64,000 nucleotides of DNA. Origin: an uncultured bacterium (lineage in GTDB: Bacteria; JAGRBM01; JAHCIT01). The notes under the pieces are model-generated. The model was not told where the DNA came from, ran no database searches, and saw only the letters and a program-made list of their open reading frames with translations. The stretch's first letter is position 1; the number at the start of each line of letters is the position of its first letter. Location: contig CAZMGV010000001.1 in the NCBI GenBank assembly GCA_964565925.1, forward strand, positions 430,618-494,617, read 5' to 3'. This document shows positions 30,678 to 35,658 of the stretch, piece after piece. Position numbers and translations under genes: made by a program.

Positions 30678-31613
30678 ATGCCGCAGACGTCCCCTACGCC
30701 AGCCGACCTCGACTCCATCTACCGGGAACACCGCCAGTTCCTGTGGGGGCTCACCTACCGGCTCACCGGCAGCACGGCGGACGCCGACGATATCGTGCAG
30801 GAGACGTTCGTGAAGGCCATCGAGAACCCGCCTCCCGACACGGCCAGACCGTGGCGGCCGTGGCTTGTGCGGGTGGCGACGAACCTCGGCATCGACCGGC
30901 TGCGCCGCCGCAAGGAGTCGCCCTACCCGGGTCCCTGGCTCCCGGCGGTGATCGAGACCGCGCCGGGCGACTTCGATCTGGCCGACACGGCCCCGACCCC
31001 CGACGGCCGGTACACCGAACTGGAAAGCGTCACGCTGGCGTTCCTGCTGGCGCTCGAAGCGTTGAACCCCAAGCAGCGGGCGGTGCTGATCCTGCGCGAC
31101 GTGTTCGACTACTCCGTGGCCGAAACGGCGCAGGCGCTCGAGATATCCGAATCCGACGTCAAAACCACCCATCACCGCGCGCGCGGGCTGATGGAAACCT
31201 ACGACCACGCCCGGGTGATCCCGACCAGGGCGCTCCAGCAGAAGGTGCAGGTGGCGCTCGGTAATTTCCTGTCGTGCCTGATGAACCGCGACGCGGCGGG
31301 TATCGAGAAGCTGCTCGCGGCGGACGTGCGGGTGCTCTCCGACGGCGGCGGCGAGTACAGCGCCGCGCGGGTGCCGATTGTCGGCGCCGCCAAGGTGGCG
31401 AAGTTCTACGTCAGCATCAGCGAGCAGAAGGCCGAGGGGATGAACCTGCAGCTGACGTATCTGAACGGCCTGCCCGCCATCGTCATCCGTACCGAGAACC
31501 CGGAGGACGGCACCGCGCCGGTACTGGTCTGGCAGTGCGTGATAGATCAGTCAGGGAAGATCAAAGAGTTTCACAGCGTCATGGCGACGGAGAAGGTGCT
31601 GAGTTTAAAGTAA
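30678..31613 (+). CDS. ECF sigma factor with C-terminal SnoaL-like extension (ECF41/SigJ-type)
   Basis: Sigma2 (DADDIVQETFVKA) and sigma4 (VLILRDVFDYSVAETAQALEISESDVKTTHHRAR) regions. YPGPWLP motif resembling the ECF41 YVGPWLPEP linker. About 110-aa C-terminal extension. No adjacent anti-sigma gene. Confidence 0.7.
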   Translation: MPQTSPTPADLDSIYREHRQFLWGLTYRLTGSTADADDIVQETFVKAIENPPPDTARPWRPWLVRVATNLGIDRLRRRKESPYPGPWLPAVIETAPGDFDLADTAPTPDGRYTELESVTLAFLLALEALNPKQRAVLILRDVFDYSVAETAQALEISESDVKTTHHRARGLMETYDHARVIPTRALQQKVQVALGNFLSCLMNRDAAGIEKLLAADVRVLSDGGGEYSAARVPIVGAAKVAKFYVSISEQKAEGMNLQLTYLNGLPAIVIRTENPEDGTAPVLVWQCVIDQSGKIKEFHSVMATEKVLSLK

Positions 31614-31638
31614 CTCAACCGCTGCTTCGCGGTATATT

Positions 31639-32727
31639 TCATGTGCCCGCCAACTGCCTCTCATCAAAAAGCTGTTCTGGCTTCCGCCATCCGTTTGGGT
31701 ATTCAACTACAGGAGGGAATCCATTGGTTTCGTCCGAAACGCAATTGACGAATGTTTCCTTAGAGATACCTTGCACGTTGCTGAAACCTTGGTATCTAAA
31801 TTGACACATATAAAATCTTGCATTTGTTAAGTTGGCACCGGCGATCGATGTTGAATCCATAGTCACGCCGCTCATTGTGCAATCAGTAAGGTTCGAGCCG
31901 TTGAAATCGACTCCGTACATTACCGCACCAATGAAACTAGCCCCAGTAAAATCGCAATTAGTTAATTTCGCTAACGCCATAATGCATTGTGAAAATTGCA
32001 CATTACGGAAACATAAGCCGTCGAGACGGCCATTCACGATCAGGACTTCTTTTAATTCTGGGCGATATCCGATCGGGTCATTCGCAATATTTCGTCTACC
32101 AATCACAGTTAAGGCGAACTTGATCGCTTCCGGCATTTCGGTTTCAAAAATACTATCTGAATAAACGTCGACGTAATTCAATTCAGTGAGTACTGCACCA
32201 GAGGGTCGCTTGAAAACCTCATGATGGATGTCATCCCATATTCTCCGGTTCCACGACGACTTCCGTCGCACGAATGACGAGAGCACTTCCATGGATGGGA
32301 CATGAAAATCCGTAGCCGATTTTGCGATATGTTCAATTACAAAAATTGCTCCGATTACTTCATCGATTTTATCGCTCGTCAGCATCCGAACGGCTGACTG
32401 AAATTGCTCCGATAATAGTCGACGCTCAGATAACCGATTGTTTTCGACGGCAACGGCAGCCTGGCTAAGTGCGGCAGCAGCCTGCTGCTCCGCAGCTTTT
32501 ATCCGTCTCCAAGCAAACACGAAACCGATTAGTGCAGCTATTACTCCAAGGACTTTCAAGTAGAAATCCATGAAGTCTTTCAGCGTGATTTTTTCGGAAT
32601 CGACCGGCCCGATTATGGACTGCAAAACGAACCAAAGAAGAAGAACGACGCAGATCAAGAAAAACCCGACCAACAAGGTCTGGGATAAATCGATTTTGAC
32701 GTTATTTTGATCTCTTTGCTCTACCAT
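31639..32727 (-). CDS. membrane-anchored pentapeptide-repeat protein (low-GC island)
   Basis: N-terminal TM helices, a central domain of unknown type, then C-terminal A(D/N)LXX pentapeptide repeats (CDFTGASFIGAVMYGVDFNGSNLTDCTMSGVTM...). Local GC about 47% against about 64% in flanks. Confidence 0.5.
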   Translation of the reverse strand: MVEQRDQNNVKIDLSQTLLVGFFLICVVLLLWFVLQSIIGPVDSEKITLKDFMDFYLKVLGVIAALIGFVFAWRRIKAAEQQAAAALSQAAVAVENNRLSERRLLSEQFQSAVRMLTSDKIDEVIGAIFVIEHIAKSATDFHVPSMEVLSSFVRRKSSWNRRIWDDIHHEVFKRPSGAVLTELNYVDVYSDSIFETEMPEAIKFALTVIGRRNIANDPIGYRPELKEVLIVNGRLDGLCFRNVQFSQCIMALAKLTNCDFTGASFIGAVMYGVDFNGSNLTDCTMSGVTMDSTSIAGANLTNARFYMCQFRYQGFSNVQGISKETFVNCVSDETNGFPPVVEYPNGWRKPEQLFDERQLAGT

Positions 32728-32852
32728 TGCCCATCACTCACGTATCCAAGCTGCTTACGAGGCTGAAACGATATCGCGATCGGTGACTCCGTAATGAAAC
32801 GCAAATAGGTGCGTAAGCAATGCCTAACTAATTCCCAGGTAAAATAGGCATT

Positions 32853-33221
32853 TCAGGAAGGGCTACGTTGCATAAAGCCGAAATCCATAATCCACCGATC
32901 TGGGTCGAAATGGCCTACGAGGTCTCGATTCGCAAGATTAAATACAAAGTCCTGAAGCAACCCTTCATAGCCCGCTTCAAACCCAATATCTTCGCGATTT
33001 TCTACAACCTCGGCCCAGTCGCGTAGATAATCCTCAGTAATGTCACGATCCGTCAATCGCATGAGAAGATTTCTCGCGTCCTTACGAGTGAATAGAACTA
33101 AATCAGCCCTCGAATCCCAACCAAACGATGCCAACTCCTCTTCAATTTCCGAAGGCGGCCTTCGTAAATTGATCAACTCCTCAAGAAGGAGCGTGCGCCT
33201 TGCTAAATCGATGCCATTCAT
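32853..33221 (-). CDS. hypothetical acidic protein (122 aa) in low-GC island
   Basis: Start overlaps the stop of the upstream 82-aa ORF (ATGA). No recognisable domain. Confidence 0.35.
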   Translation of the reverse strand: MNGIDLARRTLLLEELINLRRPPSEIEEELASFGWDSRADLVLFTRKDARNLLMRLTDRDITEDYLRDWAEVVENREDIGFEAGYEGLLQDFVFNLANRDLVGHFDPDRWIMDFGFMQRSPS

Positions 33222-33466
33222 GGGTACTTCTGCTTAACGTGAACGACATTCCCACTAGGGTCATACGTCGTTTTTATATATTTTAGCGTAATACCTGCTC
33301 CATCTACAGTTTTTTCGTAAATTGCCTTAGAGCCGGGGACGATTCCATTTACAGTCGCCTCAAAAACGACACTTCCGTTTGGCAGAGCGTAATTACGGAC
33401 GGATGCGACTGCGTTCGGCAGTTTCGAAACGAAGCGCTTATAATTATTGGTTTGCTGGCTGTTCAA
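33218..33466 (-). CDS. hypothetical small protein (82 aa) in low-GC island
   Basis: TTG start with the palindrome AATTGGC-A-GCCAATT overlapping the start/RBS. No recognisable domain. The coding call is tentative. Confidence 0.3.
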   Translation of the reverse strand: MNSQQTNNYKRFVSKLPNAVASVRNYALPNGSVVFEATVNGIVPGSKAIYEKTVDGAGITLKYIKTTYDPSGNVVHVKQKYP

Positions 33467-33613
33467 TTGGCTGCCAATTCATTCCCGCAATTATTTCGCT
33501 TATATCATATCTGTATATTGTGCGCTAATAAATTCAAGAAGCGCTCAATCCCCTCTCTGTGCGATCCGGCGAGGATAATCCGGTTCCAGCTCGTTCCTTG
33601 GCCGGTTGAGTGC

Positions 33614-34396: not shown

Positions 34397-34419
34397 TCCG
34401 GCTCCGTATCTGGCTGAAG

Positions 34420-35658
34420 CTAGATCCCCTCGCCCTGCGATCCGGCGAGGATGATCCGGTTGCGGCCCGCTGCCTTCGCCTTGTAGAGCGCCTCGTCGGC
34501 GAGGCGGATCAGGTCGTCGACGCGTTCAACCGGCGCGGCATCACTGGAGGCACCGGCGACCGGAAAACGCACGAGGCCCAGGCTCACCGTCACATGGAAC
34601 GACGTGTGGCCGCCCACGACGATCTGGGTGGTCTCGACACTCTGGCGGCACCGCTCGGCGACCGCCTCGGCCGCCTCCAGACCGGTTTCAGGGAGCAGCA
34701 GGACGAACTCCTCGCCGCCGTAGCGGGCGATCACATCCGTCGTGCGGACCGCGCTGTTCAGCACCGAGGCGATGGTCATCAGCACCCGGTCGCCGATCAG
34801 GTGGCCGTACTGGTCGTTGATCCGCTTGAAATAGTCCACGTCCAGCACGGCGAAACTGAGCGGCCGGCCGTAGCGCCGCGCGCGCTCGAACTCCGCCTCG
34901 AACAGCTCCAGGAAGTGCCTGCGGTTGAACAGGCCGGTCAGGCCGTCCTTCGTGGCGAGGTCACGGAACTCGCCCTCGCGCTCGTACCACCGGCGGTACA
35001 TGACGGCCGAAAATATCCAGCAGGGGGCCATGAACCCGATGGCGATTCCCACGAACGCATACCGCCACGCGGGCGCGGCGTGGCCCGAGGCGTCCACCGG
35101 GAACGTATGGAACAGCGGGGCGTAGGGGATGAGCCCCGCTTCCATCGCAAAACCGGCGGCGATCAGCCCCGCGAACGACAGGAATATGGCGGAAGCGACA
35201 AGCCGCTGGTCGTGCAGCGCCAGCGCCGCCGTCCCGGCCGCCGCGAGAAACATCCAGTACGGGGACGAATAGAGCCCGGACCAGTAGAGCAGGAACGCAT
35301 AGGTGAAGGCCCAGGCGTGGGTGAATACGATCTGGAGCGCCCAGGCGCTGCGGGTGCCCTCCGTCACGCGGCGGGCGGCCACGGCGAGCAGCGCCCACAG
35401 GGCGATGACCGCGACCGACAGGATATAGACGACGTTGAGACCCTGCTGCGAAAAGTGCGCGCCGCCGTCAAGCCTCGCCAGCCACAGGATCAGCAGCAGC
35501 GAACTCAGATGCCCGCCGACCGAGATGTCGCACATGATCGCGCAGCGGCGGGCCGGGGTTTCCTCCAGCAGCCCCTCGACGTACTTCCGTATCCGCGACC
35601 AGAGCCCGCTGGCTGGCTCCGGTCCGGATTCGATGGGCACTTCGTGAACCGGTGTCAC
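34420..35658 (-). CDS. diguanylate cyclase (GGDEF) with N-terminal integral-membrane sensor domain
   Basis: Six or more TM helices then the GGDEF domain (RYGGEEFVLLL active site; DGLTGLFNRRHF, LDVDYFKRINDQYGH). Confidence 0.8.
   Translation of the reverse strand: MTPVHEVPIESGPEPASGLWSRIRKYVEGLLEETPARRCAIMCDISVGGHLSSLLLILWLARLDGGAHFSQQGLNVVYILSVAVIALWALLAVAARRVTEGTRSAWALQIVFTHAWAFTYAFLLYWSGLYSSPYWMFLAAAGTAALALHDQRLVASAIFLSFAGLIAAGFAMEAGLIPYAPLFHTFPVDASGHAAPAWRYAFVGIAIGFMAPCWIFSAVMYRRWYEREGEFRDLATKDGLTGLFNRRHFLELFEAEFERARRYGRPLSFAVLDVDYFKRINDQYGHLIGDRVLMTIASVLNSAVRTTDVIARYGGEEFVLLLPETGLEAAEAVAERCRQSVETTQIVVGGHTSFHVTVSLGLVRFPVAGASSDAAPVERVDDLIRLADEALYKAKAAGRNRIILAGSQGEGI

What the first reader, a model, noticed from the sequence alone, without database searches (positions are those of the whole stretch)
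31620..33545. Low-GC island of about 2 kb encoding a membrane pentapeptide-repeat protein and two small unknown ORFs
GC drops from about 64% to about 47% across 31.6-33.5 kb. The island carries three minus-strand ORFs of 82, 122 and 362 aa. The first two are translationally coupled by an ATGA overlap. The 362-aa product has N-terminal TM helices, an unassigned central domain and C-terminal pentapeptide repeats. I recognise no domain in the two small proteins. Their size, coupling and foreign composition are reminiscent of orphan toxin/immunity or small defence modules, but this is conjecture. No integrase, tRNA or flanking repeat marks the island.
Basis: partly seen in the sequence, partly recalled or inferred. 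Interest (0 to 1): 0.55.

Follow-up and report, generated by a model that had tools for sequence, protein, structure and literature searches.

The report
Orphan Rhs-type toxin tip plus immunity gene
The two small unknown genes are a stranded "warhead" of a bacterial contact-weapon toxin (Rhs/MuF type) and its matching antidote gene, carried on a 1.9-kb piece of foreign DNA next to an unrelated membrane pentapeptide-repeat gene. This is a known kind of module, but neither protein family is in the domain libraries searched here.

Summary
GC is 0.454 over 31620-33542 against 0.632±0.035 elsewhere (z = -5). The three minus-strand ORFs of 82, 122 and 362 aa exist, and the first two share an ATGA overlap.

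The two small ORFs are real genes that public gene calls on the same DNA missed. The 122-aa protein belongs to a large family with no Pfam or NCBIfam model: 871 clusters at 50% identity, nearly all 105-125 aa, all acidic. Its AlphaFold model is confident (pLDDT 93) and has no solved structural relative.

In 17-20 of 83 metagenomic or viral loci, and in 12 Leptospira plasmids, the gene just upstream of a family member ends in an ~80-aa domain 37-56% identical to the 82-aa ORF. The stop/start overlap is usually the same 4 nt. Those upstream proteins are RHS-repeat toxins (up to 2541 aa) or phage MuF toxins.

The pair is therefore an orphan polymorphic-toxin C-terminal domain with its cognate immunity gene. 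The delivery part is missing: an in-frame stop lies 4 codons upstream, the only start is TTG, and no rhs similarity exists elsewhere in the 64 kb.

The 362-aa membrane pentapeptide protein is a separate passenger. It is never linked to this pair elsewhere. The toxin's activity remains unknown.

The parts
31620..33542 (.). Low-GC (0.454) foreign DNA segment lying between the stop of the ECF sigma gene (31613) and the relic of the GGDEF 3' end (33543)
   Evidence: z = -5.0 against the rest of the window; GC3 0.46-0.48 vs 0.77-0.89 in flanking genes
33218..33466 (-). o82: orphan polymorphic-toxin C-terminal (CT) domain. It has a TTG start, and the open frame runs from 33478 after an in-frame TGA at 33481-33479. 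It is basic (pI 9.7) and has no TM segment or signal peptide
   Evidence: 37-56% identical over its full length to the last ~80 residues of RHS-repeat and MuF toxins; it keeps all 8 invariant positions of alignment A4
33218..33221 (-). ATGA stop/start overlap between o82 and o122
   Evidence: The same 4-nt overlap occurs in 12 of 17 homologous CT/immunity modules
32853..33221 (-). o122: cognate immunity protein. It is acidic (pI 4.45), cytoplasmic and helical
33490..33517 (-). Promoter-like site (TATACA-16 nt-AATAAT) in the 30%-GC stretch upstream of o82. This is a consensus match only
   Evidence: The number of such sites in the region is not above shuffles, so this is a lead, not evidence
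32728..32852 (-). 125-nt spacer between o122 and o362, with island composition (GC 0.46)
31639..32727 (-). o362: two N-terminal TM helices, a conserved helical domain and C-terminal pentapeptide repeats (repeats encoded at about 31735-32058). It is a separate passenger gene
   Evidence: not linked to the CT/immunity pair elsewhere
33543..33593 (.). Relic copy of the 3' end of the GGDEF gene (partner copy at 34419-34469). It marks the left edge of the low-GC DNA
31618..31633 (.). Small hairpin in the 25-nt gap between the convergent stops of the sigma gene and o362. It marks the right edge of the island

Best explanation
The segment is a horizontally acquired 1.9-kb islet with two independent cargoes.

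(1) o82 and o122 form an orphan polymorphic-toxin module. o82 is only the ~80-residue C-terminal 'warhead' that, in other bacteria, ends large RHS-repeat proteins (after the DPxGL self-cleavage motif) or phage MuF proteins. o122 is the cognate cytoplasmic immunity protein that binds and neutralises that warhead.

The RHS shell, the secretion-targeting part and the variable linker that precedes the warhead in full-length toxins are all absent here. The host therefore cannot deliver this toxin to neighbours.

The most likely benefit (inferred) is protection. o122 would make the host immune to competitors that inject toxins carrying this warhead. At most, o82 is made at low level from its TTG codon. 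In that case the pair would also behave as a toxin-antitoxin-like addiction module, and the conserved 4-nt overlap would couple o122 translation to o82.

The target is probably cytoplasmic, because the immunity protein has no signal peptide or TM segment. A nucleic-acid target is a guess from the charges (basic toxin, uniformly acidic immunity family). The activity is not established.

(2) o362 is a divergent member of a widespread family of membrane-anchored pentapeptide-repeat proteins of unknown function. It merely shares the islet.

Shown: the homology, the domain position in full-length toxins, the conserved linkage, the truncation and the foreign composition. Inferred: toxicity, neutralisation, expression and selective benefit.

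The confidence of 0.8 is for the identity of the pair as an orphan toxin tip plus immunity gene. The claim that protection is the selected function is less certain, at about 0.5.
For: o122 is a real, conserved gene. HMMER against 1.84 billion representatives gave 871 hits at E<=1e-3 and 118 at E<=1e-10, with a best identity of 44%. Nearly all hits are 105-125 aa. AF2 with 102 sequences gave pLDDT 93 and pTM 0.85.

o82 is a toxin tip. phmmer against the ORFs upstream of o122 homologues gave 17 hits of 38-79 bits, each aligned at the C-terminus of its ORF, over nearly the whole of o82 in most. An HMM of the domain finds it in 20 loci plus 3 remnants.

The carrier proteins are polymorphic toxins:
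- L157, 1269 aa, has RHS_repeat x10 (E 6e-73).
- L150 has RHS_repeat and the RHS core.
- L092, L093, L164 and L157 show a DPxG(L/F/R)-type motif at the RHS-core end (DPLGL, DPSGL, DPDGR, DPSGF), about 40-75 residues before the domain.
- L148 is Phage_Mu_F.

Named genomes agree. In 12 Leptospira plasmids the domain ends proteins annotated 'RHS repeat-associated core domain-containing protein' or lies under hypothetical or unannotated stretches, and an o122 homologue lies next to it in all 12.

The linkage geometry is conserved. Of 17 adjacent pairs, 12 have the same 4-nt overlap as here. CT and immunity divergences are correlated across 15 modules (Mantel r = 0.58, p = 0.0004).

o122 homologues without a toxin sit in immunity-type arrays: next to Imm40 (PF15569) in L114 and L161, fused to a ComJ domain in L089, and behind a phage-borne toxin fusion in L090.

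Orphan state: an in-frame stop lies 4 codons before the domain start, there is no ATG, and no RHS or MuF similarity exists elsewhere in the 64 kb.

Charges fit a toxin/immunity pair: o82 pI 9.7, o122 pI 4.45, family range 4.1-5.7.

Literature: orphan CT fragments typically lack initiation signals while the orphan immunity genes are expressed and protective (PMC3150448). Orphan Rhs-CT/immunity pairs can act as internal type II TA modules from a non-ATG start (PMC7043789).
Against: - No experiment shows toxicity or neutralisation for any member of either family.
- The CT domain has no relative with known activity. There is no Pfam family and no PDB sequence hit. The only structure model is unreliable (pLDDT 52.6).
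- The module is not in the classical orphan position downstream of a main rhs gene, and it keeps no RHS-core sequence that could recombine with one. The rest of the genome was not available.
- About three quarters of the o122 homologues sampled are not next to this CT. For those members, the family's link to this toxin is inferred.
- o82 has no recognisable Shine-Dalgarno sequence, and public gene calls skip both ORFs. Expression is therefore unproven.
Confidence: 0.8

Rival explanations
1. The pair works mainly in cis as a selfish toxin-antitoxin-like addiction module. o82 is translated from the TTG codon and o122 is translated by coupling. Loss of the islet would then kill or arrest the cell, and this stabilises the foreign DNA. 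This overlaps with the best explanation and differs in which function is selected.
For: - o82 is intact and keeps every invariant residue of the family.
- The 4-nt overlap is conserved in 12 of 17 modules.
- An AT-rich stretch with a promoter-like site lies just upstream.
- In Salmonella, orphan Rhs-CT/immunity pairs are expressed from internal promoters and a CTG start, and they behave as type II TA modules (PMC7043789).
Against: - There is no Shine-Dalgarno-like sequence before the TTG.
- No known TA family matches either protein.
- The promoter-like site is no more than shuffles give.
Confidence: 0.3
2. The pair is a neutral, recently acquired remnant with no function in this host. It is a fragment of a donor's rhs locus that hitch-hiked with o362 and has not yet decayed.
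For: - Composition is completely unameliorated (GC3 0.46-0.48 vs 0.77-0.89), which suggests recent arrival.
- The toxin fragment has no ATG.
- There is no parent rhs gene in 64 kb.
- Degenerate CT remnants next to o122 homologues exist elsewhere (L141, L145, L147), so such modules do decay.
Against: Both ORFs are uninterrupted and keep all family-invariant residues. The cut lies exactly at the domain boundary rather than at a random point. Stand-alone CT+immunity modules of the same size recur in other contigs (L097, L098, L115).
Confidence: 0.25
3. All three genes form one functional system, for example a new membrane-associated abortive-infection or defence module. In it, the TM pentapeptide protein would sense or execute and the small pair would regulate.
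For: - All three genes share a strand, a composition and a 1.9-kb islet.
- Homologues of o362 in cyanobacteria lie directly downstream of HigB/HigA-like pairs (L085, L086) or next to DUF4160/DUF2442 pairs (L082).
- There is a weak sub-threshold NCBIfam hit to the Hailong effector HalA (17 bits vs a cutoff of 250).
Against: - No o362 homologue lies in any of 83 loci with an o122 homologue, and none is annotated in either of the two Leptospira plasmid regions examined.
- The six distinct gene neighbourhoods seen for eight o362 homologues share nothing.
- There are no PADLOC hits.
- The HalA, Qnr and PipB hits rest on the pentapeptide repeats alone and lie far below the cutoffs.
- A 125-nt spacer separates o362 from the coupled pair.
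Confidence: 0.05
4. The two small ORFs are chance open frames in AT-richer DNA and do not code for proteins.
For: - Public gene calls on the same DNA omit them.
- The word-indexed protein search found nothing.
- ORF length alone is only marginally unusual (p about 0.07).
Against: There are 871 homologous clusters for o122. There are 38-79-bit matches of o82 to toxin C-termini in the predicted position. The AF2 model of o122 is confident. The codon-position GC pattern is the same as in o362.
Confidence: 0.01

Closest known systems
Orphan rhs-CT/rhsI and cdiA-CT/cdiI modules (Poole et al. 2011, PMC3150448; Koskiniemi et al. 2014, PMC3967940; Stårsta et al. 2020, PMC7043789)
   Same: It is a toxin C-terminal fragment without a delivery domain and without a normal initiation codon. 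An intact immunity gene with its own ATG follows immediately. The composition is foreign. The CT is shared with full-length RHS toxins in other bacteria.
   Different: Classical orphans lie in arrays just downstream of a main rhs or cdi gene. They keep a piece of the conserved core (PxxxxDPxGL or VENN), which allows recombination onto the main gene. Here there is no rhs gene within 64 kb and no core remnant, and the fragment starts exactly at the warhead. Both protein families have no Pfam or NCBIfam model.
Acquired interbacterial defence / orphan immunity genes (for example in Bacteroidales; PMC10470768 and PMC12247911, listed)
   Same: An immunity gene is kept without a deliverable cognate toxin, on horizontally acquired DNA. 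Homologues of o122 occur in multi-immunity arrays with Imm40.
   Different: Here a single immunity gene is still attached to its toxin fragment. There is no array, recombinase or mobile-element backbone.
MuF polymorphic toxins of temperate phages (covered in the review PMC4436062; the MuF toxin class is recalled from my own knowledge)
   Same: The same CT domain ends proteins with a Phage_Mu_F domain (L148, and L156 by its shared linker).
   Different: There is no MuF domain and no phage gene in the island. No match was found in 50,697 phage records.
Ntox10 toxin with Imm27/Imm53 (Zhang et al. 2012, PMC3482391)
   Same: In the Leptospira noguchii plasmid protein, the o82-like domain directly follows a match to positions 1-81 of the 193-position Ntox10 model.
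   Different: The o82-like domain itself does not match Ntox10. Its immunity partner is not Imm27 or Imm53. The Leptospira protein looks like a chimera with a swapped C-terminal half.
Membrane-anchored pentapeptide-repeat proteins of cyanobacteria and actinomycetes; Qnr/MfpA/McbG-type pentapeptide proteins
   Same: o362 has Pfam pentapeptide repeats. It also shares the TM pair and the central 'TERFTKAIEQLGSDK..RLGGIYALERIA / DIQAALTVIGRR' domain with 50 or more homologues.
   Different: It is a short, divergent member at 21-29% identity. Scores against Qnr, MfpA, HetL, PipB and HalA models are 15-25 bits against cutoffs of 240-460, so it belongs to none of them. No function is known for the membrane-anchored family.

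Membership tests
Polymorphic toxin CT / immunity module (Rhs type) | The toxin piece is homologous to the extreme C-terminal domain of full-length polymorphic toxins, located after the RHS core (DPxGL) or another delivery scaffold | tested here: met
   37-56% identity to the last ~80 residues of RHS-repeat proteins (L157, L150, L092, L093, L164, Leptospira plasmids) and MuF proteins (L148)
Polymorphic toxin CT / immunity module (Rhs type) | A small immunity gene lies immediately downstream, and the linkage is conserved across genomes | tested here: met
   17 adjacent pairs among 83 loci, 12 with the same 4-nt overlap; adjacent in all 12 Leptospira plasmids; correlated divergence (Mantel r 0.58, p 0.0004)
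Polymorphic toxin CT / immunity module (Rhs type) | The CT is toxic when expressed and is specifically neutralised and bound by the immunity protein | not testable with these tools
   This needs expression and pull-down experiments.
Orphan rhs-CT/rhsI module in the strict sense | It lacks the N-terminal delivery region and a normal initiation signal, while the immunity gene has its own start | tested here: met
   in-frame TGA 4 codons upstream, TTG as the only start, ATG for o122; no RHS or MuF similarity elsewhere in the window
Orphan rhs-CT/rhsI module in the strict sense | It lies downstream of a main rhs gene and retains core sequence (PxxxxDPxGL) for recombination | tested here: not met
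   no rhs within 64 kb; homology starts at the warhead and no core motif is present. The rest of the genome was not available
Known toxin domain families (Pfam Ntox/Tox-*, BECR RNases, etc.) | A significant profile or structure match of the CT to a family of known or predicted activity | tested here: not met
Known immunity families (Pfam Imm1-74, SUKH, SMI1, etc.) | A profile match of o122 or its relatives | tested here: not met
   0 of 102 members hit any Imm family; no solved or viral structural relative
Type II toxin-antitoxin system | Membership of a known toxin/antitoxin family, with an antitoxin that has a DNA-binding domain | tested here: not met
   no family hit; no HTH, RHH or AbrB-like structural match for o122
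Anti-phage defence systems (PADLOC-DB 2.0) | Any of the three proteins matches a defence-system model | tested here: not met
   no hit at E<=1 for any of the three; the HalA hit is 17 bits against a cutoff of 250 and rests on the pentapeptide repeats only
Pentapeptide repeat proteins (PF00805) | Tandem A(D/N)LXX repeats above the Pfam gathering score | tested here: met
   PF00805 at 51.1 bits (cutoff 20.2); PF13599 and PF13576 are also above their cutoffs
Qnr / MfpA / McbG-type gyrase-protecting pentapeptide proteins | An equivalog-level match; a soluble ~200-aa all-repeat protein | tested here: not met
   13-25 bits against cutoffs of 240-500. o362 has two TM segments and a 150-residue non-repeat domain
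Integrative genomic island | An integrase or recombinase, insertion at a tRNA or gene 3' end, and flanking direct repeats | tested here: not met
   only three ORFs, none integrase-like; no tRNA; only a one-sided relic of the GGDEF 3' end, with no second copy at the right edge

The most novel reading that the evidence does not exclude
The ~80-residue domain is a new class of polymorphic-toxin warhead, with no Pfam or PDB relative. It consists of one helix plus a five-strand meander whose last hairpins look YD-repeat-like, and its biochemical activity has not been described. Its immunity protein has a fold with no solved relative. In this genome the stand-alone pair, far from any rhs locus, is expressed from the TTG codon. 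It would act as an addiction and immunity module that anchors a minimal, mobility-gene-free islet.
Probability: 0.25. Interest if true: 0.55.

Novelty: new member of a known kind. Interest (0 to 1): 0.36.

Why it matters
First, it identifies two genes that public gene calls on this DNA do not contain.

Second, it defines a toxin-domain family and an immunity family that are both absent from Pfam 2025, NCBIfam 20 and PADLOC. They are nevertheless widespread: the immunity family has at least 871 clusters at 50% identity. The toxin domain is carried by RHS and MuF toxins, including on plasmids of pathogenic Leptospira interrogans, L. weilii and L. noguchii.

At about 80 residues it is a notably small toxin domain, which makes it an easy target for biochemical and structural work.

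For the host genome, the pair is most simply read as acquired protection against competitors. Its position away from any rhs locus, with no mobility genes, is a small, clean example of how such modules spread. It does not change any general picture of polymorphic toxin biology.

Tried and rejected
- The word-indexed protein search found nothing for o122 or o82. The exhaustive HMMER search was needed for o122.
It returned only generic GGDEF domains from unrelated phyla (loci L002-L081 unused). No empty-site comparison or host identification was therefore possible. Looking up the sigma protein's contig also failed.
- The afdb50 library was unavailable.
- The phage collection gave no hit for either small protein.
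- Rfam, tRNA and terminator/promoter scans added nothing decisive.
- The Hailong/HalA lead for o362 was rejected: 17 bits against a cutoff of 250, no PADLOC hit, and no literature support found.
- A T6SS-accessory role for the pentapeptide protein was considered. It was dropped because those proteins are DUF2169-linked and soluble.
- A third copy of the GGDEF-end repeat at the right edge was searched for and not found.
Full report
**1. The observation**

The window averages 62.7% GC. Outside the feature, 500-nt windows average 0.632 (sd 0.035, minimum 0.490). The 14 windows inside 31620-33545 are 0.426-0.474, which gives z = -5.0. The segment 31620-33542 is 0.454, and no other extended stretch of the 64 kb falls below 0.50.

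Three minus-strand ORFs fill the segment:
- 33466..33218, 82 aa, here called o82.
- 33221..32853, 122 aa, here called o122.
- 32727..31639, 362 aa, here called o362.

o82 and o122 share an ATGA at 33221-33218. Third-position GC is 0.46-0.48 in all three. In the flanking host genes it is 0.77-0.89: an SDR, an ECF sigma factor, an MBL-fold hydrolase and a GGDEF protein. There is no tRNA, no Rfam family and no integrase-sized ORF.

o82 starts with TTG, and an in-frame TGA lies four codons upstream. A repeat does mark the left edge (section 6). ORF length alone is only marginally unusual (p about 0.07 in shuffles), so the case for the small genes rests on homology.

**2. The 122-aa ORF is a real, widely conserved protein**

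Pfam, NCBIfam, PADLOC and PHROGs gave nothing for o122. The word-indexed protein search also gave nothing, not even the sequence itself. Gene calls on an identical public contig omit it and call a 52-aa antisense ORF instead.

An exhaustive HMMER search of 1.84 billion cluster representatives changed the picture. It found 871 proteins at E<=1e-3 and 118 at E<=1e-10. The best identity is 44%, and almost all hits are 105-125 aa and align end to end. The family consensus is R...L..L...P......L..F.WDS..ELV.L......L.RYL.G......WA..IE.REDIG.E...E..L...IFELANP.L...LT.

**3. The 82-aa ORF is the C-terminal tip of polymorphic toxins**

I fetched 80 metagenomic and 3 viral loci that encode o122 relatives and extracted the ORF ending just upstream of each.

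phmmer of o82 against those ORFs gave 17 hits of 38-79 bits. Each aligns at the very C-terminus of its ORF, and most cover nearly the whole of o82. An HMM of the domain run on six-frame translations finds it in 20 loci, plus degenerate remnants in 3 more. In the window it finds only o82.

The carriers are polymorphic toxins:
- L157 is 1269 aa with ten RHS repeats (E 6e-73) and DUF6531.
- L150 has RHS repeats and the RHS core.
- L092, L093, L164 and L157 show a DPxG(L/F/R)-type motif at the end of the RHS core (DPLGL, DPSGL, DPDGR, DPSGF), followed by a 40-75-residue variable linker that is hydrophobic or Gly/Ala-rich in several carriers, and then the domain.
- L148 carries a Phage_Mu_F domain.
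- L115 is a 128-aa version with a signal-peptide-like N-terminus.

Annotated genomes agree. In 12 Leptospira plasmids (L. interrogans, L. weilii, L. noguchii) the domain is 45% identical to o82. It ends proteins annotated as RHS repeat-associated core proteins, or lies under hypothetical or unannotated stretches, and an o122 relative lies next to it in all 12. In the L. weilii plasmid it is the last member of a classical rhs array.

**4. The linkage is conserved, so this is a toxin/immunity pair**

Of the 83 loci, 17 have a near-complete domain adjacent to the o122 relative. In 12 of these the stop and start overlap by the same 4 nt as here. Across 15 modules, the pairwise identities of the toxin tips and of the downstream proteins are correlated (Mantel r = 0.58, p = 0.0004). 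The tips are the more conserved partner, at 37-56% against 31-48%.

o82 is basic (pI 9.7). o122 is acidic (pI 4.45), and the whole family is acidic (4.1-5.7). Neither has a hydrophobic segment.

o122 relatives that lack the toxin lie in contexts typical of orphan immunity genes:
- directly after Imm40 (PF15569) in two unrelated loci (L114, L161);
- fused to a ComJ domain (L089);
- behind a phage toxin fusion in an array of small genes (L090);
- next to an IS200 transposase (L139).

**5. Why the pair is an orphan, and what it probably does**

Alignment of 17 tips shows that homology to o82 begins at its TTG-encoded Leu ('LN..Q..N..RF..KLP'). o82 keeps all eight invariant positions: A48, Y50, K52, G58, T60, T67, G72 and K80. 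The in-frame stop four codons upstream removes the linker, the RHS core and everything before it. No RHS or MuF similarity exists elsewhere in the 64 kb. o82 is therefore the warhead alone and cannot be delivered.

In characterised CDI and Rhs systems such orphan fragments usually lack initiation signals. Their immunity genes are expressed and protect against incoming toxin (PMC3150448). In Salmonella, orphan Rhs tips are nevertheless made at low level from an internal promoter and a CTG start, and they act as type II TA modules (PMC7043789).

By analogy, I infer that o122 gives immunity to competitors armed with this tip. Weak TTG-initiated synthesis of o82 may add an addiction effect and drive coupled translation of o122. 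A promoter-like site lies in the 30%-GC stretch just upstream (33517-33490). It is only a consensus match, no more frequent than in shuffles.

The cytoplasmic immunity protein implies a cytoplasmic target. The charge pattern is compatible with a nucleic-acid target, but that is a guess.

Three of the 17 tips weakly match the RHS_repeat profile (best E 0.0045). The last two hairpins (YEKxVDxxGxTxxYTKTTYDPxGNxVHVK) may therefore be YD-like.

The domain is not Ntox10. In the L. noguchii protein only positions 1-81 of that 193-position model match, immediately before the o82-like domain. The partner there is o122-like, not Imm27 or Imm53.

**6. The third gene and the edges**

o362 has two N-terminal hydrophobic segments and pentapeptide repeats above Pfam cutoffs. 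It has 54 relatives at 21-36% identity (those aligning over most of its length are 21-29% identical). The aligned full-length relatives share the TM pair and a conserved helical domain with the motifs 'TERFTKAIEQLGSDK..RLGGIYALERIA' and 'DIQAALTVIGRR'. Relatives occur on the chromosomes and plasmids of cyanobacteria and actinomycetes, and are annotated only as pentapeptide repeat proteins.

Matches to Qnr, MfpA, HetL, PipB and HalA models lie far below their cutoffs and rest on the repeats alone.

o362 is not part of the module. No relative lies in any of the 83 o122 loci. Eight relatives examined show six distinct neighbourhoods, which share nothing: HigB/HigA-like pairs in one cyanobacterial lineage, a DUF4160/DUF2442 pair in another, and otherwise unrelated genes. 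I treat it as a co-transferred passenger of unknown function.

The right edge lies within the 25 nt between the convergent stops of the sigma gene and o362, which hold a small hairpin. The last ~24 codons of the sigma gene have a lower GC3, 0.71 against about 0.92.

The left edge abuts a 51-nt copy (82% identical) of the 3' end of the GGDEF gene, 876 nt away. The copy still reads NRIILAGS in frame and brackets the MBL-fold gene. There are two copies in the window and none expected by chance. No third copy exists at the right edge. How the DNA was inserted therefore remains open.

**7. Comparison, novelty and verdict**

In function and anatomy this is an orphan Rhs-type CT/immunity module. It meets the tests of C-terminal homology, conserved immunity linkage and truncation. 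It fails the stricter test of lying downstream of a main rhs gene with core sequence retained. Toxicity and binding could not be tested.

Neither protein belongs to a described toxin, immunity, TA or defence family in the libraries searched. I therefore rate it a new member of a known kind.

Interest is moderate to low (0.36). The biology is expected. The two families are uncatalogued, widespread and present on plasmids of pathogenic Leptospira, and the warhead is small enough to be an attractive target for experiments.

Noticed in passing
window 33543-33593 and 34419-34469: A 51-nt direct repeat, 82% identical. The downstream copy is a relic of the GGDEF gene's 3' end and still reads NRIILAGS in frame. 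The pair brackets the MBL-fold hydrolase gene (876-nt spacing), and the relic sits exactly at the left edge of the low-GC DNA. There are two copies in the window and 0 expected by chance. This suggests the MBL gene was itself inserted at the GGDEF 3' end, or that this site is an insertion hot spot.
   Followed up: partly
window 31540-31613: The last ~24 codons of the ECF sigma gene have GC3 of 0.71, against about 0.92 in the rest of the gene. The NCBIfam profile still aligns to the end. The foreign DNA may have replaced or influenced the gene's 3' end.
   Followed up: partly
L001 4043-4201 (same DNA as window ~33.0 kb): Public gene calls on the identical Logan contig omit both small genes and call a 52-aa antisense ORF instead. 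The exact o82 and o122 sequences are absent from the 15-billion-protein collection.
   Followed up: yes
L090 3422-6045 (IMG/VR UViG_3300033151_001172): A phage-like contig encodes a 417-aa protein with a prohead protease domain (Peptidase_S78) and a weak, below-cutoff C-terminal DUF4258 match (E 0.006, 17 bits vs cutoff 25) that could be a toxin domain. Four small genes follow, including two o122-like genes. This may be a capsid-protease-borne polymorphic toxin with an immunity array.
   Followed up: partly
L177 1-5637 (Leptospira noguchii plasmid NZ_CP091951.1, 2556-10548): A 2541-aa RHS protein is annotated 'polymorphic toxin type 10'. Only positions 1-81 of the 193-position Ntox10 model match, and the o82-like domain follows immediately. 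The downstream gene is o122-like rather than Imm27 or Imm53. It looks like a chimera made by swapping the C-terminal half.
   Followed up: partly
L176 882-6631 (Leptospira weilii plasmid NZ_CP092208.1): A classical rhs array of three successive RHS-core proteins, each followed by a small gene. The last is a 486-aa fragment with a lipoprotein-like N-terminus, and it carries the o82-like tip and a 123-aa o122-like gene.
   Followed up: partly
alignment A4 (CT domains); window 33221-33300: Three of 17 toxin tips weakly match Pfam RHS_repeat (best E 0.0045). The last two hairpins (…YEKxVDxxGxT..YTKTTYDPxGNxVHVK) look YD-repeat-like, so the warhead may derive from RHS repeats.
   Followed up: no
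L089 4995-5822: An o122-like domain is fused to, or read through into, a ComJ domain (PF11033, E 3e-15) in one 275-aa ORF on a viral contig.
   Followed up: no
L085 3083-5284 and L086 2891-5083: In Lyngbya aestuarii and a related metagenomic contig, the o362 homologue lies directly downstream of a HigB_toxin (PF09907) gene and an overlapping 134-136-aa partner gene. This superficially mimics the small-small-large layout of the window, but with unrelated small proteins.
   Followed up: partly
P0087 (449 aa): An FG-GAP / TcdB_toxin_midN repeat protein hit o122 with E 2e-13 in seven short stretches (query residues 22-72). This is probably a compositional or repeat artefact.
   Followed up: no
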